DNA of 64,000 nucleotides from an uncultured Actinomycetes bacterium (GTDB lineage Bacteria > Actinomycetota > Thermoleophilia > Gaiellales > JAICJC01): the NCBI GenBank assembly GCA_963744065.1, contig CAVUSN010000001.1:49253-113252 (forward strand), in the 5' to 3' direction. The translations under genes and the position numbers were made by a program. Shown piece after piece: positions 186-40,573 of the stretch (within the stretch, counting starts at the first letter, position 1; each line of letters begins with the position of its first letter). The notes beneath the pieces are model-generated. The model did no database searches. It had not been told where the DNA came from and was given only the letters and a program-made list of their open reading frames with translations.

Positions 186-1532
186 ATGCTCACATTGGAG
201 GAGCTGGGAGCGGACGTCTCCAGCGGCGCCATCGACACCGTGCTGCTGGTGATGACGGACATGCAGGGCCGGCTGATGGGCAAGCGCCTGCACGCGCCCT
301 TCTTCATGTCGGACGTGGCCGCGCACGGCGCCGAGGGCTGCTACTACCTGCTGACGGTGGACGTCGACATGAACCCCGTGCAGGGGTTCGAGATGGCCTC
401 CTGGGAGAGCGGGTACGGGGATTTCGTGTTCAAGCCCGACATGGCCACGCTGCGCCGGCTGCCGTGGCTGGAGCGCACGGCGCTGGTGGTGGCCGACCTG
501 GCCTGGCAGGACGGCCGCCCGGTGGTCGCCTCGCCGCGCCAGATCCTGCGCCGCCAGCTCGACCGGCTGGCCGAGCGCGGTTGGACGGCCAAGATCGGCT
601 CGGAGCTCGAGTTCATCCTGTTTCGGGACAGCTACGAGACGGCCCGGGCCAAGCGCTACCACGACCTCGACCCGGCCAACCCCTACAACGTCGACTACTC
701 GATCTTTGGCACTACCGTGGTCGAGGACGTGCTGCGGCCGATCCGGCTGGGCATGGCTGGGGCCGGGATCACTGTCGAGGACTCCAAGGGCGAGTGCAAC
801 TTCGGCCAGCACGAGATCAACTTCCGCTACTCGGACGCGCTGGCCATGGCCGACAACCACGCCGTGTACAAGAACGGCTCCAAGGAGATCGCCTGGCAAC
901 ACGGGCACGCGCTGTCGTTCATCGCCAAGTACAACGAGCGCGAGGGCAACTCGTGCCACATCCACTGCTCGTTGTGGAACGAGGCGGGCAGCCTGTTCGT
1001 GGATGCCGACGGGCACACGGCCAGCCCGATCTTCACGCAGTTCGTGGCCGGCCAGCTGGCCGCCGGCCGGGAGCTGACCTACTTCCTGGCTCCCAACATC
1101 AACTCCTACAAGCGGTTTGCCGCCGGTTCGTTCGCGCCCACCACGCTGGCCTGGGGCACCGACAACCGCACCTGCGCACTGCGCGTGGTCGGCCACGGCC
1201 AGGGCATGCGGCTCGAGAACCGCGCGCCGGGCGCCGACTGCAACCCCTACCTGGCCTTCGCGGCCATCATCGCGGCCGGCCTGCACGGGATCGACAACGG
1301 GCTGGAGCTGGAGCCGGAGTACACGGGCAACGCCTATCTGGCGGACGACAAGCCGCGCCTGCCGACCACCCTGTACCGGTCGATCGAGCTGCTCGAGTCG
1401 TCAGCCATCGCCCGCGAAGCCTTCGGCGCCGACGTCGTCGAGCACTACCTGCACTATGCGCGCACAGAGCAGGCGGCGTTCGACGCAGCCGTCACCGACT
1501 GGGAGAAGTTCCGGGGCTTCGAGCGGATGTGA
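186..1532 (+). CDS. glutamine synthetase family protein (PuuA-like gamma-glutamyl-amine ligase)
   Basis: DMQGRLMGKR, ELEF, GQHEINF, GNSCHIH, WGTDNRT and RLENRAPGADCNPY motifs. GGGAGG precedes ATG at 186. Confidence 0.9.
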   Translation: MLTLEELGADVSSGAIDTVLLVMTDMQGRLMGKRLHAPFFMSDVAAHGAEGCYYLLTVDVDMNPVQGFEMASWESGYGDFVFKPDMATLRRLPWLERTALVVADLAWQDGRPVVASPRQILRRQLDRLAERGWTAKIGSELEFILFRDSYETARAKRYHDLDPANPYNVDYSIFGTTVVEDVLRPIRLGMAGAGITVEDSKGECNFGQHEINFRYSDALAMADNHAVYKNGSKEIAWQHGHALSFIAKYNEREGNSCHIHCSLWNEAGSLFVDADGHTASPIFTQFVAGQLAAGRELTYFLAPNINSYKRFAAGSFAPTTLAWGTDNRTCALRVVGHGQGMRLENRAPGADCNPYLAFAAIIAAGLHGIDNGLELEPEYTGNAYLADDKPRLPTTLYRSIELLESSAIAREAFGADVVEHYLHYARTEQAAFDAAVTDWEKFRGFERM

Positions 1533-28851: not shown

Positions 28852-30057
28852 TCAAGCAAGATCGATGCTTAGCGCTCGCAGCGACACGATCGCCACCGCC
28901 GCCGTCAGCACGGCGGCGAGCTCGAACACCTGCGAGGGCGACCAGCGGGCCACCATCAGGCTGGCCACCAGCGCGCCGGCCGAGGCCGCCAGGAGCGCCG
29001 ACATGCGCCCGGTGATGCCGACCCGCGACTGCTCGGAGGGCGCCGCCCGCACCTGCCGTTCGCCGATCAGCATGGTGATGAAGAGGATGGCGGTGCCCTC
29101 CATGGCGCCGAAGGCCAGGGTGGCGCCGACGATCCCGCCGGCCAGCGCCAACGCCGCCGCGGCGAAGGCGTTCGCCACCAGCGCCCCGCGCAGCGCCCGC
29201 GAGGCGCCCAGCCGGCGGCGCAGGCTGGGGGCCGCCCAGCCTCCGGCCAGGCCGGTCAGTCCGCCCAGCGCGAGCATGCGGCCGGCGGCCGAGCCGCCCG
29301 CGTGCAGCTGGACGCGGGCGTACACCACGATCAGGGAATAGAACAGGTTGACGACCAGGTTCCAGGCCATGCCGACGGCGGTCAGCCGGCGCAGCACCGG
29401 GTTTCGGGCCACCAGCGCCAGCCCGGACTGGGCGCGGCCGATCGGACGCTCGGCCGGGTCGGGTCCGAGGTCGGTGCGGATGCCGGCAAACAGCACCGCG
29501 GCCACCACGAACCCGCCGGTCTGCACCCACAGCGCCTGCACGGGGCCAACCAGCCCGATCAGTGCGCCGCCCAGCGCCGGCCCGACCAGGAAGCCCAGCG
29601 ACCAGACGAGCGAGAGCGCCGCCTGGCCCTCCACGAAGTGGCCGCTTCCGACCATCCGCGAGATGGCCCCGAAGGCTGCCGCGTCGACGAATACGCGACC
29701 CGCTGCCACGCTCAGCCCGGCAGCGAACACCAGCGCGAGCGGCAGCTCGCGCACCGGCCGCCCGGTCGCCACCACGATCGGCAGCACGGCCGCGGCGGCG
29801 GCCTGCACGCAGGTGGCCACGATCATCGTCCGCCGCCGCGGCCAGCGGTCGCCGGCGCTGCCAGCCGGCAGACCCAGCAGCACGTACGGCACGGTGCCCA
29901 TCAGGTAGGCCGCGCCGGCCAGCGAGCGGGAGCCGCCCGCGTCCAGCACCAGCCAGGGCAGGGCGACCAGCGCCAGGCCGCCGCCGATGGCGTCCATCAA
30001 CTGCGCGATCAGGTAGCGGCGGCCGTCCGGCGAGCGCAGCAGCGGATTTTGGATCAC
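28852..30057 (-). CDS. MFS transporter
   Basis: About 12 TM helices and GSAGDRWPRRR motif A. The GTG start overlaps the upstream stop. Confidence 0.88.
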   Translation of the reverse strand: MIQNPLLRSPDGRRYLIAQLMDAIGGGLALVALPWLVLDAGGSRSLAGAAYLMGTVPYVLLGLPAGSAGDRWPRRRTMIVATCVQAAAAAVLPIVVATGRPVRELPLALVFAAGLSVAAGRVFVDAAAFGAISRMVGSGHFVEGQAALSLVWSLGFLVGPALGGALIGLVGPVQALWVQTGGFVVAAVLFAGIRTDLGPDPAERPIGRAQSGLALVARNPVLRRLTAVGMAWNLVVNLFYSLIVVYARVQLHAGGSAAGRMLALGGLTGLAGGWAAPSLRRRLGASRALRGALVANAFAAAALALAGGIVGATLAFGAMEGTAILFITMLIGERQVRAAPSEQSRVGITGRMSALLAASAGALVASLMVARWSPSQVFELAAVLTAAVAIVSLRALSIDLA

Positions 30058-31102
30058 TCCCACACCGGCGGGCCGGTGCGCAGCGCGAGCGAGGTGCCGA
30101 GGCCCAGCCGCCGGGCGTTGTCGTACACGTAGCGGGCCGTGGCCACGTCGTCCATGGCCAGGCCCACCGGCGTCACCACGATCCGCTGGGCTGGGTCGGT
30201 GCGGCCCGCATGCCGGCCGCTGATGACGTCTGCCAGCTCCACCGCCTGCGAGCCGTCGGCCGGGATCAGGCCGGCGCCCACCAGCCGCTCGGCGTAGCGG
30301 CCGGGGTGGGTCGACTCGTGCTCCCAGTCGTCCACCACCAGCAGGTCGGTCACATCGTGCAGTTCGAGCGGGCCGTCCAGGCTGAGACACGAGGACTACC
30401 GTCGCCCCGGGGTCGAGCCATTCGGGCGCGAAGGTCGGCTGCACCGCCATCGTCGCCGGCACCACCACGGCCGCCCCGCGCACCGCCCCCTCGGCCGAGC
30501 CGGCGGCGTGTACATGCAGCCCGTCCGTGCTGTGGCGAGCGCCGAAGCGGGCCGCCCGCCCGCCGTCGGGGTCGTACACGCGCACCTCGCGCAGCGCCGG
30601 CAGCACCGCCCGCAACGCGTCCAGCTGGGTATTGGCCAGAACGCCGGCCCCCAGCAGGCAGGCCACCGCGGCGGCCGGGTCGGCCAGCGCACGCACGGCC
30701 GCGCCGGTGACGGCGCCGGTGCGCATGGCGCTGACCACGGTGCCGTCCATGACGGCCAGCGGCAGCCCGGTCTCGCGGTCGGACAGCAGTACCAGGGCGT
30801 TCGCCCGCGGCAGGCCGCGGGACGGGTTGGAGGGCACGCTGGGGATCCACTTCAGCCCGGCCACGTCGAACTCGCCGCCGACGTAGGCCGGCATGGCCAT
30901 GATCCGCCCGTGCAGCTCCTCGGTGCCGGGCTCGTCCGACCAGGTGATCATCACCTTGGGCGGCATGAACACGTGGCCCTCGGCCTTGACCCGGAAGGCC
31001 CGCTCGATGACGTCGATCACGGCCGCCATGTCGAGTGCCACCGGCCGCCACCACGTCCTCCTGTGACAGGTACAGGAAGGACGTGTCGGGGACCGCTGTC
31101 AC
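30054..31102 (-). CDS. ornithine cyclodeaminase/mu-crystallin family protein, frameshifted in assembly
   Basis: FLYLSQEDV, AMPAYVGG, GLKW, SAMRTGAVTG and GLAMDDVATA across three frames. Confidence 0.87.
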
Positions 31103-31173
31103 GGGTTCGGCATCATACGGGGCATGCGTGCAGTCGTCGTCAGCGAACCGGGCCTCGTTCCGGAGATGCCCGG

Positions 31174-33084
31174 ATGACCGTCCACGTGACCTCCGCCGCG
31201 CTGTCGTTCGGGGCCGATGAGGTGCTGAGCGACGTGTCGTTCATCCTCCGCCCGCGCGACCGGGTGGCGCTGGTGGGGCGGAACGGCGCCGGCAAGACGA
31301 CGCTGCTGCGGATGCTGGCCGGCGAGCTCTCGCCTGACCGGGGCGAGATCGCGATCCCGTCCGGCACCCGGGTGGCATTGCACGACCAGCGCCCGCCGCT
31401 GGCCACCGCCACCACCCTGGGCGAGTACGTGGGCGCCGGGGCGGCCGAGGCCAGCCGGCTGGAGGAGGAGTTGCGCGGGCTGGAGGCGCAGATGGCCGCC
31501 GGCGACGCCGGGACCAAGGTGCTGGGCCGCTACGAGGCGGCCCAGCGCCGGTTCGAGCGGGCCGGCGGATACGGCTGGCGGGCCCGCCTGGAGGCGGTGG
31601 CCCGAGGCCTGGGCTTCACGCCGGACGACCTCGGCCGGCCGCTGCGCTCGTTCTCGGGCGGCGAGCTGACCCGGGCCTCGCTGACCCGGGCGCTGGCCGC
31701 CGAGCCGGACGTGCTGCTCTTGGACGAGCCCACCAACCACCTGGACACCGACGCCATCGAGTGGTTGGAGGAGCACCTCGACTCGCTGGACGCGTCGGTG
31801 CTGCTGGTCAGCCACGACCGCTGGTTCCTGGAGTCGGTGGCAACCGGGGTGCTCGAGATCGACCGCGGCAAGGGCCGCTACGACAAGGGCAGCTACTCGC
31901 ACTGGCGGGCTCTGAAGGCCGAGCGGCTGGCCTCCGCGGCGGACGCCTGGGAGCGTCAGCAGGCAGGAGCTGGCCCACCTGCAGCGGTTCGTCGACCGCT
32001 TTCGGTACGGCACCAAGAGCCGCCAGGCGCAGAGCAAGCTGAAGGCCATGGACCGCATCGAGCGGGTCGAAAAGCCATCCGGCCAGCGCTCGCTGCGCTT
32101 CCAGTTTCCGCCGCCGGCGCGCAGTGGGCGGGTGGTGTGCGAGGTCGAGGGCGTGGATCTGGAGGTGGCGGGGCGGACGCTCCTGTCCGGCGCCTCGTTC
32201 GCCATCGAACGCGGCCAGCGGGTGGCCCTGCTGGGGCCCAACGGCGCGGGCAAGACCACGCTTCTGGAGACGCTCTTGGGCCGCCGCGAGCCACGAGCCG
32301 GGAAGCTCAAGCTGGGGCACAACGTGACCGTCGGCTACTACTCGCAGCAGTCGCTGGAGCTGCCCGACTCGCACCGCGTGATCGAGGCCATCACCCATCA
32401 GAGCAGCCTGACCGGGCCGCAGGCGCGCGACCTGCTGGGCCTCTTCCTGTTCTCCGGTGAGGCCATCGAAAAGCCGGTGTCGGCGCTCTCCGGCGGCGAG
32501 CGGCGGCGGCTGGCGCTGGCCCGCACCGTCGTCTCGGGGGCGAACTTCCTGGTCCTGGACGAGCCCACCAACCACCTGGACATCGAGAGCCGGGAGGCAT
32601 TGGAGGACGCGCTCGAGGCGTACCAGGGGACGTTGCTTCTGGTCTCCCACGACCGCGCGCTGATCGAGGCCCTGGCCACCCGCACCCTGTCGATCGAGGA
32701 CGGCCAGCTGGTGGCTCGCGAGGGCGCCTTCGGTGACTACGCACGCGCCCACGACAGTTTGCCGGCCCACCACACCGCCATGCCTCCACCCCCGAGCTCA
32801 GTGCGGCCGGCGCCCAAGCCCAAACCCAAGCCGGCCCGGCAGAAGGCGTCGCGCACGCCGGCCGCCCGGCCAGCCCAGCGGGCCAGCCGTGAGGCGGCCC
32901 GCCTGGAACGCGAGATCGCGGCCCTGGAGGAGGAGCTGGGCGCGATCCAGACCCGGCTCTCGCGCCCGACGAGTACCGCGACGACGAGGCGCTGGCCGCC
33001 GACGGGCACCGCCACCAGGCGGTGCAGGAGGAGTTGGCCTACAAGTACCGCGACTGGGAGCGGCACGCGGCCGAGGCCGGATGA
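31174..33084 (+). CDS. ABC-F family ATPase, frameshifted in assembly
   Basis: Two ABC cassettes (GRNGAGKTT/FSGGE/LLDEPTNHLD and GPNGAGKTT/LSGGE/VLDEPTNHLD), no TM segments, C-terminal coiled coil. Confidence 0.92.
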
Positions 33085-33101
33085 CGCGGTGCCCCCACCA
33101 C

Positions 33102-33134
33102 CCCGGTGCCTGGCACGTGGGTGGCACCGGCCTT
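33102..33134. repeat. REP-like palindrome copy
   Basis: CCGGTGCCTGGCACGTGGGTGGCACCGG between convergent genes. Confidence 0.7.
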
Positions 33135-33718
33135 TACTTGGCCAGCGTCTCCACCATCGCCTCGGCGATGTCACGCAGGGTGCGGCTGGTGCGCTGGCTG
33201 GCGCCGCGCATGCGGCGAACGCCTCGGCCTCGGTCAGCCCGTCGTTCTCCATCAGCAGGCCCTTGGCACGCTCGATCAGCTTGCGCGACTCGAGCGCGTC
33301 GCGCAGGCGGCCGGACTCCGCGCGCACCGCCTGCAGCTCGGCGTGCGCGGGCCCGGGCGGTCTCGATCGCCGGCAGCAGGTCGCTCTCGCGGAACGGCTT
33401 CACCAGGTAGCCGAAGACGCCGGCGTCGACCGCCCGCGCGACCAGCTCGCGCTCCGAGAACGCGGTCAGCATGACGATCGGGATCGGCCGCTGCTCGAGC
33501 ATCCGGCGGGCGGCCTCGATGCCGTCCAGCTCCGGCATCTTGACGTCCATCACGCGCCAGGTCGGGCCGGTGCTCGGCGGCCAGCGCGACCGCCTCGCGC
33601 GCCGTCCCGGGCCTCGGCCACCACCGTCGAACCCGGCCCGCTCCAGCATCGCCCGCAGGTCGAGCCGGATGATCGTCTCGTCCTCGGCGATCAGGACTCG
33701 GCCGGAAATCGTGACCAC
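33134..33718 (-). CDS. REC-ANTAR response regulator (PdtaR/NasT-like)
   Basis: RVLIAEDETIIRLDL, MDVKMP, GYLVKPF and ANTAR segment LESRKLIERAKGLLM..LTEAEAF. Frameshifted, and the start is uncertain. Confidence 0.9.
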   Translation of the reverse strand: MVTISGRVLIAEDETIIRLDLRAMLERAGFDGGGRGPGRRARRSRWPPSTGPTWRVMDVKMPELDGIEAARRMLEQRPIPIVMLTAFSERELVARAVDAGVFGYLVKPFRESDLLPAIETARARARRAAGGARGVRPPARRARVAQADRACQGPADGERRADRGRGVRRMRGASQRTSRTLRDIAEAMVETLAK

Positions 33719-35180
33719 CGCCCTTCCGCCGCCCAGCGTCAGGAGCCGCCCGCGCAGCTCCTCGCGCACCAGCGTCGCGGGCGATCGTCAGCCCCAGCCC
33801 CTCGCTGCGCGTCCGCCGCCGGCCCTCGGCCCTCGTCGGCCACGCACAGCTCGACCTGGTCGCCGTCGCGGCGCAGGCTGCACCGCGATCGCGCCGGCGC
33901 CGTGCTCGACCGCGTTTTGGAACAGCTCGCAGAACACCAGCGCCAGCGCCGTGGCCCGCTGCGCCGGACAGCGTCACCGGCTCCAGCCGTGAGCCCACCG
34001 CGCGCCGCCCAGGCCCTGGCCCAGCATCGCCTCGAGCCGGCCGATCAGCCCGGCGCAGTCGAGCGTCGTCGGCGCCGGTCGAGGTCAGCAGGTCGTGCAC
34101 GGCCGCGATCGACAGGATCCGGTTGACGCTCTCTCGCAGCGCCTTGGCGGCATGCTCGTCGTCAGCGGCCTCGCGCCTGCAGGCGCAGCAGCGAGGCCAC
34201 CGTCTGCAGGTTGTTCTTGACCCGGTGGTGGATCTCCTGGGCCAGCAGCCCGCGCAGCGCCGTGCGGGCGTTCTCGACCGCCGCGGCGGCGGCGTGCGCC
34301 ACCGTTGCCAGAAGCGACAGCTCCTCGGGCGACCAGGCCCGCGGGCGCTGCGCCAGCACGACCAGCGCGCCGGTCGTCCGCTCCTTCCACACCAGCCGGC
34401 TGCACGGCGGCCGTCTCTCCGGCCAGCGGCGCCCGCCCGGCCAGCTCCAGCAACTGAGCGTCGGGCACCAGCTGGCCGGTGCGGTGAGCCACCCGCAGGC
34501 CGTCGTCGGAGGCCAGCACCAGCGCGCACTCGTCGGCCCCCAGGGCCCGCTGCGTACGCTCGCAGATCCCGCGCACGGCCTCGTCCAGGTAGAGCGAGGA
34601 CGAGACAGTGGCGCCGATGTCGGCCAGCGCCTCGAGCTCGGCCACCCGGCGCAGTGAGCGCTCGTACAGCTTGGCGTTCTCGATCGCCTGGCCGACCTGG
34701 CCGGCGATCGCGCGTCAGCAGCGCGATCTCGTCGTCGGCGAACGCGCGCGGCGCGCGGGTGCGCACGTTGAGCGCGCCGTCCAGCCTGTCGCGGGCCAGC
34801 ACGGGCACCGCCAGGATCGACTCGTACTCGTCCTCGGGCAGGTTGGGAAACGACACGAAGCGCGGGTCGAGGTGCGCGGCGTTCGATCAGCGATCGGCTG
34901 CGCGCGGCGCCGCCGCGGCGCCGGTGATGCCCTCCCCAGGCGCCATCCGCGGGCGGTGGGCGGGATCGTCGAAGCGGGCGCCGTGGGTCGCCCGCAGCTC
35001 GAGCAGGTCGCTGGGCTCGTCGTACAGGTAGACGAAGCAGGCGTCGGTGGCCATGCGCGGCCGCCACCTTGGAGGCGATCTGGTGCGAACACCTCGTCCA
35101 GGTCCAGCGACGAGTTGACCGCGGCGATCGTGTCGGTCAGCAGCTGCAGGTGGCGCGCGGCGCGGTCGACGATCAGCCAT
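33700..35180 (-). CDS. cytoplasmic GAF-GAF histidine kinase, HisKA_2 type (PdtaS-like)
   Basis: EIHHRVKNNLQ H-box, RILSIAAVHDLL, GLGLTIA, GAF segments (DACFVYLYD..GEGITG) and no TM segments. Frameshifted. Confidence 0.88.
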
Positions 35181-35200
35181 CGGCTCGAGTGCTAGGCGAG

Positions 35201-35236
35201 GCCGGTCGCCAGGCACGGTGCCTGGCACCGGCCTTT
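35201..35236. repeat. REP-like palindrome copy
   Basis: GCCGGTCGCCAGGCACGGTGCCTGGCACCGGC between glnA and the kinase. Confidence 0.75.
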
Positions 35237-35241
35237 CGCCG

Positions 35242-36617
35242 CTACAGCATCGGCAGGTAGCGGTCCGAGCTCCCACGGCGTGACCTGCACGCGGTACTCG
35301 TCCCACTCGCGCGCGCTTCAGCGCCACCAGCCGGTCGCGCAGCTCGCGGGCCCAGCGCCTTCTCGACCAGCTCGGACTCCTCGGCGGCCGCGATCGCCTC
35401 GCCCAGCGACTCGGGCAGCGACTCGATGCCCAGCGACCGTGCGCTCGGGCGCCGTCAGCTCGTAGAGGTTGGTCTCCATCGGGTCGGGCAGCTCGTAGCC
35501 GCGCTCGATCCCCTCCAGCCCGGCGTGCAGCAGCCCGGCGAAGGCCAGGTACGGGTTGCAGGACGGGATCGGGGCAGCGGATCTCGGCCCGGGTCGCCTT
35601 CTCCTTGCCGGGGTGGTACAGCGGCACCCGGATCAGCGCCGAGCGGTTGCGCCGCGACCAGGCGACGTACACCGGCGCCTCGTAGCCCGGCACCAGCCGC
35701 TTGTAGCTGTTCACCCACTGCGCGAACAGCAGCGAGATCTCGCGGGCGTGGCGCAGCTGGCCGGCGATGAAGCTCTTGGCCACGTCGGACAGGTACCAGC
35801 GGTCGTCGGCGTCGAAGAACGCGTTCGAGTCGCCGATGAACAGCGACTGGTGGGTGTGCATGCCCGAGCCGTTCTCGCCGAACAGCGGCTTGGGCATGAA
35901 GGTGGCGTGCACGCCGTGCTGCTGGGCCACCTCCTTGACCAGCGAGCGGTAGGTCATGCAGTGGTCGGCCATCTCCAGCGCGTCGGCGTAGCGGATGTCG
36001 ATCTCGTGCTGGCTGGGGCCGACCTCGTGGTGCAGGTACTCGACCGGGATGCCCATCTCCTCGAGCGCCAGCACGATCTCCTTGCGCAGGTCGACCGCGG
36101 CGTCCACGCGTCGTGTCCTCGAAGTAGCCGCCGGCGTCCAGCGTGTGCGGCCGGCCGTGCTCGTCCAGCCTGAAGTAGGAAGAACTCGAGCTCGGGCCCG
36201 ATCTTGAAGCAGTCGAAGCCCAGCGACTGCATCCGGTCGAGCGCGCTGCGCAGCACGTGCCGGCGAGTCGGCCTCGTACGGCTCGCCGTCGGGCGTGCGC
36301 ACGTCGCAGAACATGCGCGCCACCGACGTGCTCGCCCGACTGCCGCGGCAGCATCCGGAAGGTGGCGGGATCGGGCATCGCGATCATGTCCGACTCCTCG
36401 ATCGCGTTGAAGCCGGTGACCGACGAGCCGTCGAAGCCCATCCCGTGCTCGAGCGCGTCCTCCAGCTCGTCGCGCGTGATGGCGAAGCTCTTCAGCCGGC
36501 CCACCACGTCGGTGAACCACAGCCGGATGAACTTGATCTCGCGCCTGCGTCGACCTCGCGCAGCACCTCGCTCGCGCGCCTCGGCGGCTCAGCGCCGGTG
36601 TCGTCGATCGTCGCCAT
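35242..36617 (-). CDS. glnA: type I glutamine synthetase (GSI-alpha-like), frameshifted in assembly
   Basis: GRLKSFAI, GFDGSSV.GF..IEESDM, HHEVGPSQHEID, ATFMPKPLFGENGSGMHTHQSL, NSYKRLVPGYEAP and NRSALIRVP. Confidence 0.93.
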
Positions 36618-36647
36618 CGTCGCTCCCTTCTCCCGGTTTCCGGGCAC

Positions 36648-36694
36648 AAAAAAACGCCCCCAGGTGGCACCGCGTGGGGTCACTTGGAGGCGTC
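36648..36694 (-). terminator. intrinsic terminator in glnA leader
   Basis: GACGCCTCCA pairs with TGGGGGCGTT, and the stem runs into a T7 tract about 30 nt before the glnA start. Confidence 0.8.
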
Positions 36695-36724
36695 ATCGCC
36701 TCGTCGCGGCCGCCGCCATTGCCG
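36687..36724 (-). promoter_or_regulatory. ANTAR-target dual-hairpin RNA (antiterminator)
   Basis: CGGC-AATGGC-GGCG, 8-nt linker, GAGGC-GATGAC-GCCTC. Both hexaloops have purine at position 1 and G at position 4. Hairpin 2 overlaps the terminator 5' arm. Confidence 0.8.
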
Positions 36725-36762
36725 ACCGACTCGAGCAGCAAGCCTACGCGGATCAGGCGCGG

Positions 36763-38880
36763 TCAGGCTGCGACCCGGCCTCGATCGACGGCGATCAGGG
36801 CAGTCGACCACCGTCGGGGTCGAAGTGCGCTGCCGGCGCAGCGGCGCAGCTCCGGCATCGCCTCCGGCGATCGTCCAGCGCGCCTGCGGTACACGCGGTC
36901 GGAGGTCATCGCGTGGTAGGCGTCGCAGGCCAGGATGACGCGCGCGCCCAGCGGGATCTCGTCGCCGGCCAGGCCGAGCGGATAGCCGCTGCCGTCCCAG
37001 TGCTCGTGGCAGGCGATCACCAGCTCGCGGGCGCCGGCCAGCGCCGGCACCGGCTCGATGATGCGCGCGCCCAGCTCCGGATGCGGCTTCATCACCTCGC
37101 ACTCCTCGTCCGTCAGCGGCGCCGGGCTTGTTCAGGATCTCGGCCGGGATCCCGATCTTGCCGATGTCGTGCAGGGCGGCGGCCAAGCTGACGTCGCGCA
37201 GCTGCGGCGCCGGACACGCCCGAGCCGGTCGGCGACCGTCGGTGCACAGCCCGACCAGCGCCTGGGCGTGGTCGTCGGTGTAGCTCGTCCTTCGGCGTCG
37301 AGCGCGTTGGCGAGCGCCTCGCACGGTGGCCAGGAACGAGTCGTCGAGCTCGTCGTAGAGCGCGCGGTTGGTGATCGCCAGCAGCGCCTGGTCGGCGATG
37401 CCGAGCAGCATCTGCTCGTCGCGCGAGCGGGGCGGCCCGCGGCGCGGCCCGCGCTGCACGACGATCAGCGCCGCGGTTGGCCGACCGCTCGCCGATCGCG
37501 ACCACCGCGAACGTCGATGCCCGGCGGGAGCGGCGTCCAGCCGGCCGGCCAGCGGCCGCGGCCGGTCGACGTCGAGCACCGTCACGCCGCGCCGCTGCAG
37601 CGCCTGGCCGACAGGGCGCGGCCAGCGCGACCAGGAGCCGATCTCGGTCAGCCGCTCGTTCTCGCGCGGCGTGTAGCCGACGTGGCGCGGCCAGGCGCAG
37701 CCGGTCGCCGTCGCGCAGCCAGACCGAGAGCGCGGCGCACTCGACCAGCCGGTCGATGCGCGCGGCGCCAGCATCGGGCGATGCCGTCGACGCTCGGTCT
37801 GCAGCGACAGCGCCGCGCCCAGCTCGAGCAGCGCCTCCGAGACCTCGCGCCGCCTCGTGCTGCTCGGCGTGCAGGCGCACGCTGCTCGCAGGCGACGGCG
37901 CCGTCGCGGCGACCACGCTCGCAGCAGACGCAGGTCGTCGTCGTCGAACCGGTCGAGGCCCTCCTTGGACGAGCACGATCACGCCCATCGGCTCCGTCCT
38001 GCCGCCAGCATCGGCGCGACCAGCATCGACTCGTCGACAGCGTCGTCTCGAGCGCTCCCCAGCAGCATCCGACTCCAGCCGCGCGTTGGCGATCCTGCGC
38101 GAGATGCGCTCGTCGATGGCACGCCCAGCCAGGCGCTCGACGGCGCTGCGTCGTCGCTCCCCGCCAGTTCGTCTGGACGCCGCGTCCGAGCGGGCACGAC
38201 CGTCAGATCCCGGCCGGACGGCGCGGTCAGGTAGAACCGGCAGGCGTCGACCGACCAGCTCGCTGATGCGCGTCCACCATCTCCTGCGCCACCTCGACCT
38301 CGGACCGGAGCCCGGCCAGGGCCCCGGCCAGCTCCTGGAGCCACCATCCGCTCGCCAGCCGGCCGTGCGACGCCGGCGGAGGTGGGCTGCTGCAGCGCGG
38401 CGGCGCTGCAACTGCCTCGCGTGGGCTGCCGCCACCAGCCGCGCGCAGGCCAGGTCATCGGCCGACAGCAGCCTGCCGGAGCGGGCTGACCCGATCACAA
38501 ACAGGCTGTGCCCCGGTCCGTCGGGCAGCCGCACGACCACCAGCACGTAGCGGCCATCGCGGGCCTGGCTGACCTCATCCACCGCCGCATCGGCCAGCAC
38601 CCGCAGCCGCTGCGCGCCCAGCCGGCCGGCGGCGGCGCCCGACCGCGCCCACCGGGCCAGCACCTGCATATCGACCGGCGAGCCCTCCAGCACCCAGGCC
38701 GCGTCCAGGCCCAGCAGCTCGACCAGCGCGCGGCAGGCGGCCACCGGCAGCGGTTCGGGACAGGCTGCCGACCGCCGAGCTGACCTCGGCCAGCCGGCGC
38801 AGCCGGGTGGGCGCCGAGGTGGCCTCGCGGCGAGCCTCTCCCAGCGACGCCGTGAGGTCGGAGCCATTCGTCCGAGCCAT
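36763..38880 (-). CDS. multi-GAF HD-GYP domain protein (c-di-GMP phosphodiesterase-like), heavily frameshifted
   Basis: LHDIGKIG, ILNKP, HEHWDGSGYP and CDAYHAMTSDRVY, with GAF-like segments upstream. Confidence 0.8.
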
Positions 38881-38953
38881 CAGGCGCAGGAAGCCTAGGA
38901 GCCTGCATCGGGCCCGTCCATCCCCGCATCGCCGTACGCCGGGATTCGGGCAA

Positions 38954-39950
38954 CTAGATGGGTCGATCAGCGACGTAAACGCTCGCGGCCACCAGCGCCG
39001 ACGCCGGAAGGGTCAGAACCCAGGCGACCACGATGTTCGCCGCCACGCCCCAGCGCACCGCCGACAGCTTGGTGGTGGCTCCGGCGCCCATCACCGACCC
39101 CGAGATCACCTGGGTGGTCGAGATCGGAAAACCGCTGCGCGCCGTGTACCACAGCACCAGGCTGGCCGTTGTCTGGGCGGCGAACCCCTGCGGCGGCTCG
39201 AGCTTGAAGATCCGCGTGCCCATGGTGCGCATGATCCGCCACCCGCCCACGTAGGTGCCGATGCCCATGGCCAGCCCCGAGCCGCAGCTTCACGTACCAG
39301 GGGATGTAGAAGGAGTCGATGTGGTGGGTGGAGAGCAGCGCCAGGGCGATCACACCCATCGTCTTCTGGGCGTCGTTGGTGCCGTGCAGGAACGCCATCA
39401 GGCTGCCCGAGGCGATCTGAGCCACGCCGGAATCCGCGGTTCAGCGGCGCCGGCCGAACCCGCCGGAACCCCCACAGGATCGACCAGCATCACCACGCCC
39501 GGCGAGCACGAAGCCGATCAGCGGACTCTGGATGGCCGGCACGATCGACCTTGTGCCAGATCCCGCCCCAGTCGACCGCGCGCGGTGCCGTCGGCGGCCA
39601 CCGCCGCGCCGACCAGCCCGCCGATCAGCGCATGCGACGACGAGGACGGCAGGCCCATCTACCAGGTCACCAGGTTCCAGGACGATGGCGCCCAAGCAGC
39701 GCCGCCACCAGCACCTGCACGGTCACTCTGCGCCGGGTCAGACCAGGCCGCTGCCGACGGTCTTGGCGACGGCGGTCCAGACGAACGCGCCCGCGCAGGT
39801 TCATGACGGCCGCGATCAGCACCGCCAGGCGCGGCGTCAGCGCGCGGGTCGAGACCGTGGTGGCGACCGCGTTGGCGGTGTCGTGGAAGCCGTTGGTGAA
39901 GTCGAAGCCGACCGCGACGACGATCACCAGCCACAGCAGCCGTCGGTCAT
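38954..39950 (-). CDS. PiT family inorganic phosphate transporter, frameshifted
   Basis: FDFTNGFHDTANAVAT, HGTNDAQKTMG, GGWRIMRTMG and PISTT. Confidence 0.92.
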
Positions 39951-40573
39951 CGGTTCTTGAGATAGACGCTCTCCAGCACGTGGGCCGCGTGCTCGCAGCC
40001 GTCGACGGCCTGCTCGAGGTCCTCGTGGATGTCCTTCCAGCGGATCACGACCAGCGGGTCCAGGCCGTCCGAGAACAGGTTGGCCGTGCGCCTTGCGCAG
40101 ACAGCCGGTCGCCCTCGTCCTCGAGCGTGTGGATCTCGACCAGGAGCGTGCTCGACATCGCGCAGGCCGTTCAGTCCCGCCACCGCGTCGGCCAGCTTGG
40201 ACGACCGCCCGCAGGATCACCCCGGCCTGGTCGATGGCCTCGGCGCGGCACCTCCTCGACGCCGTACAGGTTGAGCTCGTCGGCCACCTCATCCATGAAG
40301 TCGCAGATGTCGTCCAGGGCCGTGCACAGGTCGTAGATGTCCTCGCGGTCGATGGGCGTGATGAACGTCTTGTGCAGCGGCTGGACGATCTCGTGGGTGA
40401 CGCTGGTCGCCCTCGTGCTCGCGGTCCTTGATCTCGGCCACCAGCCCGCTGCGGTCGGGATAGTGCTCGAGCAACTCGAGCAGGAGCTCGCGCCGTCGCC
40501 ACCAGGTTGCCGGGCCGCCGGTCGAACAGCGCGTAGAACTCGCGGTTTGGGGTACCAGTCGGATCCGGACCAC
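39947..40573 (-). CDS. DUF47 (PhoU-like) Pit accessory protein, frameshifted
   Basis: EHEGD, TFITPIDREDI..L...LDDI and IRWKDI.E.LE.AVD.CE. Confidence 0.9.

What the first reader, a model, noticed from the sequence alone, without database searches (positions are those of the whole stretch)
33134..36746. glnA leader with an ANTAR dual-hairpin/terminator switch, and its GAF kinase + REC-ANTAR regulator directly downstream
Seen: on the minus strand a TAGGCT -10 box (36741-36746) is followed by hairpin CGGC-AATGGC-GGCG (36711-36724, one G.G mismatch), an 8-nt linker and hairpin GAGGC-GATGAC-GCCTC (36687-36702). The 3' arm of hairpin 2 is also the 5' arm of a terminator (GACGCCTCCA/TGGGGGCGTT running into T7, 36648-36694), so the two structures are mutually exclusive. 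Downstream of glnA on the same strand lie a soluble GAF-GAF HisKA_2 kinase and a REC-ANTAR protein. Established: ANTAR proteins (EutV, NasR, AmiR) bind tandem hexaloop hairpins with a G at loop position 4 and prevent termination. To my knowledge actinobacterial glnA is usually GlnR/AmtR-controlled, and actinobacterial ANTAR targets are mostly described as translational. Inference: this is a self-contained and possibly autoregulatory phosphorylation-gated antitermination circuit for nitrogen assimilation in a deep-branching actinobacterium.
Basis: partly seen in the sequence, partly recalled or inferred. Interest (0 to 1): 0.85.

Follow-up and report, generated by a model that had tools for sequence, protein, structure and literature searches.

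The report
ANTAR-type attenuator leader of glnA
The glutamine synthetase gene of this soil actinobacterium is preceded by a conserved RNA switch of a known kind, most likely read by the RNA-binding regulator encoded just downstream, so it is a solid new example rather than a new mechanism.

Summary
On the minus strand a TANNNT hexamer (36746-36741) is followed by hairpin P1 (36727-36708, loop AAUGGC), hairpin P2 (36702-36687, loop GAUGAC) and a terminator (36693-36648, U7) that uses the 3' arm of P2. glnA starts at 36617.

Comparison with relatives shows this is not chance:
- P2 plus an overlapping terminator occurs in 24 of 25 orthologous leaders.
- P1 occurs in 20 of 20 leaders of the same family, and 8 of its 9 pairs show compensatory changes.
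- G at loop position 4 never varies.
- A model built without the window finds its leader as the best hit in the whole genome.

A GAF-HisKA_2 kinase and a REC-ANTAR regulator follow glnA in all 19 relatives' loci that reach far enough; a 20th ends inside the kinase gene. The regulator's closest solved relative is Rv1626.

A strict pattern for the leader hits 183 of 401 genomes of the order (record titles: Gaiellales, Thermoleophilia), 0 of 100 other genomes of the class, and never in the backwards control. The same genome carries a second such leader before P-II/amtB.

Best reading: phosphorylation-gated ANTAR antitermination of nitrogen assimilation, a new member of a known kind. It is not self-contained. 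Autoregulation by read-through is doubtful, because the kinase operon appears to have its own promoter. No binding or transcript data exist.

The parts
36741..36746 (-). -10-like hexamer TAGGCT (TANNNT) of the glnA leader promoter
   Evidence: Read. A TANNNT hexamer lies 6-17 nt upstream of the first hairpin in 24 of 24 leaders. No -35 was found by the simple scan. The start site is inferred, not mapped.
36708..36727 (-). P1 hairpin GGUCGGC-AAUGGC-GGCGGCC (one G.G mismatch), the proposed recruitment hexaloop
   Evidence: Present in 20 of 20 family-f1 leaders: 19 by an unbiased script, 1 by eye with a bulge. 8 of 9 pairs carry compensatory changes and 92% of cells are paired.
36703..36707 (-). 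linker GCGAC between P1 and P2 (8 nt if only the 4-bp P1 core is counted)
   Evidence: The script's linkers in relatives are 0-7 nt, because it lets long P1 stems run up to P2.
36687..36702 (-). P2 hairpin GAGGC-GAUGAC-GCCUC, the antiterminator
   Evidence: The stem is nearly invariant and the loop has A2 and G4 in 24 of 24 leaders located by the stem alone.
36648..36693 (-). intrinsic terminator: long stem whose 5' arm contains the 3' arm of P2, then U7 (36654-36648)
   Evidence: -21.1 kcal/mol. In 24 of 24 leaders the P2 3' arm is paired in the terminator. The upper stem differs in sequence between relatives but stays paired.
36623..36629 (-). ribosome-binding site AAGGGAG of glnA
   Evidence: Read. 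The same GAAGGGAG/GGAGG lies before the start in relatives.
35242..36617 (-). glnA, type I glutamine synthetase (broken over frames in this assembly)
   Evidence: Gln-synt_C 267 bits on a fragment. The clean orthologue passes TIGR00653 GlnA, 502 bits against a cut-off of 429. The stop TAG at 35244-35242 was read.
35200..35233 (-). strong GC hairpin after the glnA stop, without a U tract
   Evidence: A comparable hairpin follows glnA in 11 of 12 relatives with adjacent genes.
35188..35194 (-). TAGCACT, a -10-like element 7 nt before the kinase ATG (relatives: TAGACT/TACACT/TACAAT)
   Evidence: by eye: 8 of 12 relatives carry such a hexamer. In the window the hexamer is imperfect, possibly through an indel error.
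33695..35180 (-). soluble GAF-GAF-HisKA_2-HATPase histidine kinase (frameshifted in the assembly; end approximate)
   Evidence: The same-genus orthologue L058 has 2 GAF stretches, HisKA_2 (70 bits) and HATPase_c. The first GAF is most like the GAF of PtsP/EI-Ntr and of NifA.
33134..33697 (-). REC-ANTAR response regulator (frameshifted in the assembly)
   Evidence: ANTAR 49.4 bits on the window's fragment. The clean orthologue scores Response_reg 104 bits and ANTAR 78 bits. The best solved relative is 1s8n (Rv1626, 'putative antiterminator', E 1e-53), then EutV 6wsh.
36753..38870 (-). upstream neighbour: GAF + HD_5 (HD-GYP-type) protein, not part of the switch (start approximate)
   Evidence: HD_5 124 bits in the orthologue. 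It lies directly upstream of glnA in 12 of 20 relatives' loci. It is further away in 2 and absent in 6, yet the leader is still present in all of them.

Best explanation
The 5' leader of glnA is a transcription attenuator of the ANTAR type.

Proposed sequence of events:
1. Transcription starts a few bases after TAGGCT.
2. P1 is made first, then P2.
3. Unless something holds P2, the much stronger terminator (which includes the 3' arm of P2) forms, and RNA polymerase stops at the U7 tract about 30 nt before the glnA start.
4. The REC-ANTAR regulator encoded downstream, once phosphorylated by the adjacent soluble GAF-HisKA_2 kinase, binds the hexaloops through the flipped-out G at loop position 4. 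This keeps P2 folded and lets polymerase read into glnA.

The same regulator probably also opens the leader of the P-II/amtB operon elsewhere in the genome, giving a small nitrogen-assimilation regulon.

What is shown: the RNA architecture, its conservation and covariation, the terminator overlap, and the gene linkage.

What is inferred: which protein binds, that phosphorylation switches it on, that the signal is nitrogen status sensed by the kinase's GAF domain, and the sign of the response (on when nitrogen is scarce).
For: RNA:
- P2 plus an overlapping terminator occurs in 24 of 25 orthologous glnA leaders. L026 lacks it.
- In 24 of 24 of those leaders the P2 3' arm is paired in a terminator of -19.9 to -38.6 kcal/mol, against -6.5 to -9.3 for P2 alone.
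- P1 occurs in 20 of 20 leaders of the family.
- On 19 leaders (17 distinct): 95% of cells are paired; covariation score is 0.518 against 0.171 in shuffles (0 of 500 reach it) and at most 0.077 when partners are slid; 8 of 9 P1 pairs have compensatory changes.
- G at loop position 4: 20 of 20 P1 and 24 of 24 P2. This also holds when hairpins are found without any loop requirement, and in both loops as I read them in 6 of 6 P-II leaders.
- A model built without the window ranks its leader first in the genome.
- Rfam finds no known riboswitch there.

Linkage:
- glnA, then kinase, then REC-ANTAR in all 19 loci that reach far enough, plus the window; the 20th (L051) ends inside the kinase gene. 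The set includes 4 loci from another family.
- Three genomes of family f5 have neither a full-length orthologue of the regulator nor the leader. The two f5 glnA loci fetched show no kinase or regulator downstream.
- In one relative (G086) a full leader directly precedes paralogues of the regulator.

Protein:
- The ANTAR and REC domains are intact in orthologues.
- The phospho-acceptor Asp aligns with that of EutV.
- EutV's G4-binding residues R142, K149 and E160, together with K143 and R168, are identical. Y164 is F, as in Rv1626.

Regulon:
- A second leader in the same genome (C7:312750-312822) precedes P-II (54 bits) and Amt (376 bits).
- My scan for dual hexaloop hairpins overlapping a terminator gave 2 hits with G at loop position 4, and 0 each with A, C or T.

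Precedent in print:
- ANTAR dual-hexaloop antitermination, with hits before N genes including glutamine 'synthase' (PMC3369931: section 10 and passages read).
- A single hexaloop with G4 is the minimal motif, and A1 makes no contact (PMC8934654: passages).
- Geobacter GnfK/GnfR antiterminates nifH. Terminator-like signals with the conserved CAGGCAANGGCGCC also precede nifEN, nifX, glnK and amtB (PMC2995071: passages). This is close to P2 of relative L012 (GAGGCAAUGGCGCC).
Against: - There is no experiment. No binding, no mapped 5' or 3' ends, no expression data from this organism.
- P2 has G, not A, at loop position 1. Across relatives A1 is found in only 9 of 20 P1 and 6 of 24 P2. G1 could pair with C6 to give a tetraloop, as in the MFE.
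- EutV's Met172 (essential there) and Asn173 are Gln-Gln in the orthologue and Gln-Arg in the window.
- The P2 stem never covaries: 3 pairs are invariant and 2 vary on one side only. Its pairing therefore rests on conservation and on the terminator logic.
- The glnA leaders of the other family lack P1 in 4 of 4 loci.
- The genome encodes two more ANTAR proteins, so the binder is assigned by adjacency only.
- Family f2 has the kinase-regulator pair but no leader matching the pattern (0 of 37).
- The single-sequence fold is no better than shuffles.
- The window's own genes are frameshifted. I attribute this to assembly errors without proof.
Confidence: 0.75

Rival explanations
1. The leader is a real attenuator, but the effector is a different factor. 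Candidates are one of the two other ANTAR proteins of the genome (a GAF-ANTAR protein and an ANTAR protein with no other Pfam domain detected), or an unrelated RNA-binding protein. On this view the linked kinase-regulator pair controls something else.
For: - There are three ANTAR matches in the genome, with domain make-up given.
- Family f2 keeps the kinase-regulator pair without a detectable leader.
- Met172 and Asn173 of EutV are not conserved in the linked regulator.
- ANTAR domains recognise little more than a hexaloop with G4 (PMC8934654, passages), so specificity is hard to infer.
Against: - Linkage of glnA with this particular pair holds in all 19 loci that reach far enough, across two families.
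- The three f5 genomes searched lack both a full-length orthologue of the regulator and the leader.
- In G086 the leader sits directly before paralogues of this regulator.
Confidence: 0.12
2. The leader is a protein-independent riboswitch or thermosensor. A small molecule such as glutamine, or temperature, shifts the balance between P2 and the terminator.
For: It precedes glnA, as the cyanobacterial glutamine riboswitch does. The switch logic (mutually exclusive helices) would be the same.
Against: - No Rfam family matches at E up to 10.
- Conservation is confined to two small hairpin loops and to the P2/terminator arm.
- P1 stem sequence and linker vary freely. There is no junction, internal loop or pseudoknot that could form a pocket.
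- The loops repeat the same RAYGNN theme, which is typical of a dimeric protein site.
Confidence: 0.04
3. The structure is only the constitutive terminator of the upstream HD-domain gene, the two small hairpins are chance products of a 70% G+C sequence, and glnA is expressed from elsewhere.
For: - The terminator lies about 60-100 nt after the stop of a same-strand gene.
- The fold energy of the leader equals that of shuffles.
Against: - Only about 30 nt separate the U tract from the glnA start, which leaves no room for a promoter.
- The leader, with its TANNNT, stays with glnA in the 8 relatives' loci where the HD gene is absent or about 2 kb away.
- P1 covaries.
- The backwards control of the pattern gives 0 hits in 401 and in 121 genomes.
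Confidence: 0.03

Closest known systems
EutV/EutW and the eut leaders of Enterococcus faecalis (ANTAR dual-hexaloop antitermination)
   Same: - Two small hairpins with hexaloops, and G at loop position 4.
- P2 overlaps an intrinsic terminator.
- The regulator is REC-ANTAR, paired with a soluble kinase.
- The regulator aligns end to end with EutV, E 6e-37.
   Different: - Loop position 1 is A or G here.
- EutV's Met172/Asn173 are Gln-Gln in the orthologue.
- The kinase is of the GAF-HisKA_2 type, not EutW.
- The targets are glnA and P-II/amtB, not ethanolamine genes.
GnfK/GnfR of Geobacter sulfurreducens
   Same: - A histidine kinase plus a REC-ANTAR regulator antiterminate nifH, and terminator-like signals precede nifEN, nifX, glnK and amtB.
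- The published conserved element CAGGCAANGGCGCC (PMC2995071, passages) is nearly the P2 of relative L012.
- The element resembles the AAYGGC loops seen here.
   Different: - A different phylum.
- GnfK is described as lacking an apparent sensor domain, whereas this kinase has one or two GAF domains.
- gnfK and gnfR are unlinked and sigma-54 dependent.
- glnA is not among the genes named there with terminator signals.
PdtaS/PdtaR (Rv3220c/Rv1626) and actinobacterial ANTAR-target RNAs
   Same: - The regulator's best solved relative is Rv1626, E 1e-53, aligned over 186 of 187 residues.
- The partner is a soluble GAF-containing HisKA_2 kinase.
- Same phylum.
   Different: - Actinobacterial ANTAR RNAs in print mostly overlap the RBS or start codon and act on translation, and 'only few' have terminators (PMC8164766, passages).
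- Here the RNA is a classical attenuator, the genes are adjacent to the target, and the target is nitrogen assimilation.
- Orthology of the kinase to PdtaS was not tested.
NasR/nasF and AmiR/amiE leaders
   Same: ANTAR proteins that prevent termination in the leader of a nitrogen-source operon encoded next to the regulator.
   Different: Those regulators are not phosphorylated; they are controlled by a NIT domain or by AmiC. Here the receiver domain keeps its acceptor Asp and has a cognate kinase.
Glutamine riboswitch (glnA RNA motif, Rfam)
   Same: An RNA element in front of glutamine synthetase-related genes.
   Different: No match in the Rfam scan. The architecture is different and no ligand pocket is apparent.

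Membership tests
ANTAR-target RNA (dual hexaloop antiterminator, Ramesh 2012) | Two adjacent stem-loops with at least 3 bp each | tested here: met
   P1 has 6 pairs plus one mismatch and P2 has 5 pairs. P1 is backed by covariation. P2 rests on conservation only.
ANTAR-target RNA (dual hexaloop antiterminator, Ramesh 2012) | Hexanucleotide terminal loops | tested here: met
   The loops are AAUGGC and GAUGAC. Hexaloops occur in 20 of 20 P1 and 24 of 24 P2. The P2 G1-C6 could close to a tetraloop in the window, but relatives' loops ending in A or G cannot make that pair and those ending in U allow only a G-U wobble.
ANTAR-target RNA (dual hexaloop antiterminator, Ramesh 2012) | Adenine at loop position 1 of both loops | tested here: not met
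   P1 has A and P2 has G. Across relatives A occurs in 9 of 20 P1 and 6 of 24 P2, and the rest are G. The EutV-RNA structure shows no protein contact to A1 (PMC8934654, passages).
ANTAR-target RNA (dual hexaloop antiterminator, Ramesh 2012) | Guanine at loop position 4 of both loops | tested here: met
   20 of 20 P1 and 24 of 24 P2. Both loops, as I read them, in 6 of 6 P-II/amt leaders.
ANTAR-target RNA (dual hexaloop antiterminator, Ramesh 2012) | Short linker between the hairpins (5-12 nt in E. faecalis) | tested here: inconclusive
   5 nt in the window, or 8 nt from the 4-bp core. In relatives the linker is 0-7 nt, depending on how far P1 is extended. Leaders of the other family have no P1 at all.
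ANTAR-target RNA (dual hexaloop antiterminator, Ramesh 2012) | P2 overlaps an intrinsic terminator (mutually exclusive folds) | tested here: met
   24 of 24 leaders. In the window.
ANTAR-target RNA (dual hexaloop antiterminator, Ramesh 2012) | Bound by an ANTAR protein, with read-through as the result | not testable with these tools
   Only linkage evidence is available.
REC-ANTAR response regulator (Pfam PF00072 + PF03861) | Both domains score above Pfam cut-offs | tested here: met
   In the orthologue, Response_reg scores 104.3 bits (cut-off 30.2) and ANTAR 78.4 bits (cut-off 27.3). The window's ANTAR fragment scores 49.4 bits. The window's REC part was read only in translation.
REC-ANTAR response regulator (Pfam PF00072 + PF03861) | Phospho-acceptor Asp and RNA-contact residues of EutV | tested here: inconclusive
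   The Asp is aligned. R142, K143, K149, E160 and R168 are identical. K147 is R and Y164 is F. M172 and N173 are both Q.
PdtaS/PdtaR two-component system | Orthology of the regulator to Rv1626 and of the kinase to Rv3220c | tested here: inconclusive
   For the regulator, Rv1626 (1s8n) is the best solved relative at E 1e-53, but no tree was made. For the kinase, no PdtaS chain appeared among solved structures at E up to 1e-5, and no NCBIfam model reached its cut-off.
Glutamine riboswitch and other Rfam leaders | Match to an Rfam covariance model | tested here: not met
   Scanning window 30000-40000 at E up to 10 gave only one unrelated weak hit elsewhere.
Type I glutamine synthetase (GlnA) | NCBIfam TIGR00653 equivalog cut-off | tested here: met
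   The orthologue scores 501.9 bits against a cut-off of 429.15. The window's copy is 97-99% identical over the fragment tested.

The most novel reading that the evidence does not exclude
In the order Gaiellales a PdtaS/PdtaR-type two-component system is the main nitrogen regulator. It acts entirely by transcription antitermination on a regulon that includes glnA, a second GS, a type II-like GS, amtB and P-II. Its GAF domain reads 2-oxoglutarate or glutamine, as the related GAF domains of PtsP and NifA do. This would take the place that GlnR or AmtR hold in other actinobacteria, and it would point to nitrogen sensing as the ancestral job of the PdtaS/PdtaR family, whose natural signal in mycobacteria is still debated.
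Probability: 0.3. Interest if true: 0.7.

Novelty: new member of a known kind. Interest (0 to 1): 0.5.

Why it matters
ANTAR attenuators before nitrogen genes are known from Firmicutes and Proteobacteria. In actinobacteria, published ANTAR RNAs are mostly translational, and few have terminators.

This is a clean, order-wide actinobacterial case. It has strong covariation, an obvious cognate kinase and regulator, and at least two targets in one genome. That gives a testable natural function (nitrogen assimilation) for a PdtaR-like regulator.

It also gives a set of natural variants that bear on what ANTAR domains really need in their RNA:
- G instead of A at loop position 1.
- Single-hairpin leaders.
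- Gln at the position of EutV's essential Met172.

It is useful for annotating Thermoleophilia genomes from soil. It is not a new mechanism.

Tried and rejected
- Single-sequence folding gave no signal (z = -0.18).
- The simple sigma-70 scan found no promoter.
- A plain MAFFT alignment of P1-P2 put gaps inside P1 and was discarded (A1). I instead built a model from 8 equal-length leaders and realigned with Infernal.
It was not used for counts.
- L007 (E 0.017) was left out of the 19-row alignment A4. Its P1 loop is GCCGUU.
- The second-best own-genome hit of the model (C17:4486-4531, 27 bits) lies in the first codons of a histidine ammonia-lyase-like ORF. It has no terminator, was treated as probable chance and was not followed up.
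- A relaxed regex over the genome gave 4 hits, of which only glnA is credible.
- My structural scan missed glnA because of the P1 mismatch, and it returned one dubious hit on C21.
- In one search three terminators were cut short by an internal U run. This was corrected.
- Sequencing runs. Only small shares of the words were held, mostly by runs labelled soil metagenome, 6 of them on record as RNA. When laid, contigs of RNA libraries X12/X13 (772 and 769 nt) and X16 (295 nt) cover 36385-36700 at about 89% likeness. The X12/X13 contigs continue upstream with the P1 sequence of the L002 type. They belong to a relative, span into the upstream gene, may be DNA carry-over, and cannot show ends or strand. 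I draw no conclusion on transcription from them. There was no cover beyond 36707.
- Literature. Searches for ANTAR with Gaiell- (swamped by 'Antarctica'), for ANTAR + ammonium transporter + antitermination + Actinobacteria (0 papers), for ANTAR + Thermoleophilia as whole words (0 papers) and for PdtaR + glutamine synthetase (3 papers, listing only, none relevant by title) found no description of this leader.
- Supplements are closed. Table S2 of PMC3369931 and Table S4 of PMC8164766 may list such leaders and could not be seen.
- Complex prediction, structure prediction and the large protein searches were not used, because they do not bear on RNA binding.

Full report
**What is there.** Read on the minus strand, the intergenic region runs from the stop of an HD-domain gene (TGA 36755-36753) to the glnA start (ATG 36617). 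In order it contains:
- TAGGCT at 36746-36741.
- Hairpin P1, GGUCGGC-AAUGGC-GGCGGCC, at 36727-36708. It has one G.G mismatch.
- A 5-nt linker.
- Hairpin P2, GAGGC-GAUGAC-GCCUC, at 36702-36687.
- A long terminator hairpin from 36693 whose 5' arm includes the 3' arm of P2, ending in U7 at 36654-36648.

P1 folds at -8.1 kcal/mol, P2 at -9.1 and the terminator at -21.1, so termination is the default. About 30 nt, including an AAGGGAG ribosome site, separate the U tract from the start codon. This is too little for a promoter.

Taken alone the sequence proves little. Its folding energy equals that of shuffles (z = -0.18), and no sigma-70-type promoter was found by the simple scan.

**Quality of the sequence.** The assembly is full of indel errors. 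glnA, the kinase and the regulator are each spread over several frames, and the genome scores 65% complete. I therefore took domain calls from clean orthologues. I regard the mismatches in P1 and in the terminator stem as possibly artefactual.

**Comparative test of the RNA.** A fragment of the GS found orthologues (62-98% identical over the full-length protein) in relatives. I extracted 25 upstream regions, the window's included.
- P2 with an overlapping terminator is present in 24 of 25. L026 lacks it, and L023 is cut by its contig end and was not examined.
- In 24 of 24 the 3' arm of P2 is paired within a terminator of -19.9 to -38.6 kcal/mol, against -6.5 to -9.3 for P2 alone.
- The upper terminator stem differs in sequence from genus to genus but stays paired.
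- P1 is present in 20 of 20 loci of the window's family. It is absent in 4 of 4 loci of the other family, where P2 follows the -10 hexamer directly.
- To avoid circularity I repeated the search for the best hexaloop hairpin upstream of P2 with no condition on the loop. It is the same P1 in 19 of 20 (L019 needs a 1-nt bulge, seen by eye), and all have G at loop position 4.
- P2 loops located by the stem alone have A2 and G4 in 24 of 24.
- Position 1 is A or G: A in 9 of 20 P1 and 6 of 24 P2.
- A TANNNT hexamer lies 6-17 nt upstream of the first hairpin in 24 of 24.

**Covariation.** I built a covariance model from 8 equal-length leaders, not including the window. It found 19 of the 20 family leaders at E up to 2e-4; the 20th, L007, scored E 0.017 in the wider search. 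The window's leader scored 41.5 bits. On the resulting alignment of 19 rows, 17 distinct:
- 95% of cells form standard pairs, against 75.7% in shuffles.
- The covariation score is 0.518 against 0.171 (0 of 500 shuffles reach it), and at most 0.077 when the partners are slid by 1-3 columns.
- 8 of 9 P1 pairs show compensatory changes, and the closing C-G never varies.
- The P2 stem shows no compensatory change: 3 pairs are invariant and 2 have G-U variants.

The lack of covariation in P2 fits its double duty as terminator arm, but it means that P2 pairing itself is supported by conservation only. The alignment was fitted to the structure, which favours it, but the slid controls are far lower.

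**Search in the genome.** In the whole genome the model's best hit is the glnA leader (E 3e-6). The next hit (27 bits) lies inside the first codons of a histidine ammonia-lyase-like ORF and has no terminator.

**Genes.** The orthologue of glnA passes the GlnA equivalog cut-off (502 against 429 bits). Downstream lie two regulatory genes.
- The kinase is soluble, with one GAF (genus of G008) or two GAF stretches (the window's genus), followed by HisKA_2 and HATPase. Its first GAF is most like the GAF domains of PtsP/EI-Ntr (87 bits to positions 5-176 of that model) and of NifA. From memory, not from a call: those two domains respond to glutamine and/or 2-oxoglutarate. This is a lead for the signal, nothing more.
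- The regulator has Response_reg (104 bits) and ANTAR (78 bits). Its best solved relatives are Rv1626 (1s8n, E 1e-53) and EutV (6wsh, E 6e-37).

I mapped the published EutV contacts (PMC8934654, passages) onto the alignment:
- R142, K143, K149, E160 and R168 are identical.
- K147 is R.
- Y164, which stacks on G4, is F, as in Rv1626.
- M172 and N173 are both Q.
- The acceptor Asp aligns.

**Linkage and distribution.** The order glnA, kinase, REC-ANTAR holds in all 19 fetched loci that reach far enough; the 20th (L051) ends inside the kinase gene. The 20 include 4 loci of the family whose leaders have only P2. In 7 of the 20, other DNA lies between glnA and the kinase.

A strict pattern for P2 plus terminator gave these results:
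- It matches 183 of 401 genomes sampled from the order: f1 43 of 64, f3 138 of 276, f2 0 of 37, f4 1 of 14 and f5 0 of 9. The backwards control gave no hit in any genome. The tally includes two unpublished genomes.
- In a sample of the class it matches 11 of 21 genomes of the order and 0 of 100 outside it.
Their titles are mostly Gaiellaceae, Gaiellales, Thermoleophilia or unclassified Actinomycetota, with a few from other phyla that I did not examine.

The pattern is narrow, so these are lower bounds. It misses, for example, the window genome's own second leader.

Family-level contrasts:
- Three f5 genomes lack a full-length orthologue of the regulator, and the two f5 glnA loci fetched have no leader and no kinase or regulator downstream.
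- Two f2 genomes have the pair (68-69% identical) away from glnA and without a detectable leader nearby.

**A regulon, not a closed circuit.** Many f3 genomes carry two pattern matches a few kb apart. In the loci I fetched one leader precedes the glnA orthologue. The others precede a second GS of about 490 residues, amtB, P-II, a type II-like GS, a GNAT-like ORF (called from the look of its sequence, not scanned) and, in G086, a pair of paralogues of the regulator. These other leaders mostly have both hairpins.

In the window's own genome a second leader lies on contig C7 (312750-312822):
- P1 is GCCGCC-GUAGAG-GGCGGC.
- P2 is AGGC-GCUGAC-GCCU.
- A 12-bp terminator stem overlaps P2, followed by U8.
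- P-II (PF00543, 54 bits) and an ammonium transporter (PF00909, 376 bits) follow.

Scans of my own for hexaloop hairpins overlapping a terminator:
- Two such hairpins: 2 hits with G at loop position 4, namely this one and a dubious one. glnA was missed because of its P1 mismatch. There were 0 hits each with A, C or T at that position.
- One such hairpin: 9 terminators with G against 1, 2 and 4 for the other bases.

P-II/amt leaders in 6 of 6 genomes that have this P-II gene show, as I read them, G4 in both loops, while positions 1-3 vary. One P1 loop looks like 7 nt.

**Autoregulation.** After the glnA stop there is a strong GC hairpin without a U tract (35233-35200), in the window and in 11 of 12 relatives with adjacent genes. 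A TAGACT/TACACT/TACAAT-like hexamer lies 5-8 nt before the kinase start in 8 of 12 (by eye). In the window it reads TAGCACT (35194-35188). Together with the insertions between glnA and the kinase in 7 loci, this suggests that the kinase-regulator operon has its own promoter and a nearly leaderless mRNA. Read-through from glnA cannot be excluded. G086 shows that a leader directly before regulator paralogues does occur.

**Mechanism proposed.** The default is termination at the U tract. The kinase phosphorylates the regulator, which dimerises and binds the hexaloops through G4: P1 first as a recruitment site, then P2. That holds P2 folded, so the terminator cannot form. This follows the model for EutV (PMC3369931, section 10 and passages; PMC8934654, passages). 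That work also states that a single hexaloop is the minimal site and that A1 makes no protein contact, which accommodates both the G1 loops and the single-hairpin leaders seen here.

The direction of control (on when nitrogen is short) and the ligand are inferred from the genes controlled and from the likeness of the GAF domain.

**Known or new.** ANTAR antitermination of nitrogen genes is established for eut, nas and ami, and for Geobacter GnfK/GnfR. The latter's conserved CAGGCAANGGCGCC nearly equals P2 of relative L012 (PMC2995071, passages). [quoted passage not shown]

For actinobacteria the published picture is mainly translational control, with only a few terminator-linked cases (PMC8164766, passages). 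glnA appears in that paper's main text only inside a reference title (as GlnA3). My searches found nothing on ANTAR in Thermoleophilia or Gaiella, and Rfam has no model that matches.

I therefore file this as a new member of a known kind. It is well supported as an RNA structure (about 0.95). The assignment of the linked regulator as its effector is less certain, which gives 0.75 overall.

**Not obtained.** There is no expression evidence for this organism.

Noticed in passing
own genome contig C7:312750-314550 (outside the window; locus L119): A second leader of the same build (two G4 hexaloop hairpins, overlapping terminator, U8) sits in front of a P-II gene and an ammonium transporter.
   Followed up: yes
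window 33134-38900 and the genome at large: Every gene inspected in this stretch (glnA, kinase, regulator, HD-domain gene) is broken by frameshifts roughly every 100-150 nt, and genome completeness is 65%. This looks like an error-rich long-read assembly rather than gene decay.
   Followed up: partly
window about 36753-38870, minus strand: A GAF + HD_5 (HD-GYP-type, possible c-di-GMP phosphodiesterase) gene lies directly upstream of the glnA leader. This holds here and in 12 of 20 relatives' loci. Any functional tie to the kinase is unknown.
   Followed up: partly
window 35188-35233, minus strand: A strong GC hairpin without a U tract follows glnA, then a -10-like hexamer lies a few bases before the kinase start. 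Both are conserved in most relatives, which suggests a leaderless kinase-regulator mRNA.
   Followed up: partly
own genome C17:4486-4531 (+): The second-best hit of the leader model (27 bits) lies in the first codons of a histidine ammonia-lyase-like ORF and has no terminator. It may be chance, or a translational ANTAR site of the kind described in mycobacteria.
   Followed up: no
own genome C1:133497-133658 and C5:63989-64147 (loci L247, L248): Two further ANTAR proteins: one is GAF-ANTAR, and one has an N-terminal part with no Pfam match (possibly a degenerate receiver, as in AmiR/NasT).
   Followed up: partly
window about 726-1226 (+) (G000:C1:49978-50478): Another glutamine synthetase-family gene, 38% identical to the glnA fragment, lies near the start of the window. 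Its leader was not inspected.
   Followed up: no
L112 (G086:C14:333400-334630): In one relative a complete dual-hairpin leader directly precedes a receiver-only gene and a REC-ANTAR paralogue. This is a possible autoregulatory arrangement that is absent from the window.
   Followed up: partly
loci L101-L109 (family f3 genomes): glnA and a second, roughly 490-residue GS are divergently arranged about 5 kb apart, each behind its own leader. The glnA leader there has only P2, starting about 12-17 nt after the -10 hexamer.
   Followed up: partly
loci L130, L151, L167, L169, L173, L187, L196: A few exact pattern matches lie in genomes titled delta proteobacterium, Puniceispirillum, Massilibacillus, Acidobacteriota, Phycisphaerae, Duganella and Methylocapsa. 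They could be chance or ANTAR leaders of other phyla.
   Followed up: no
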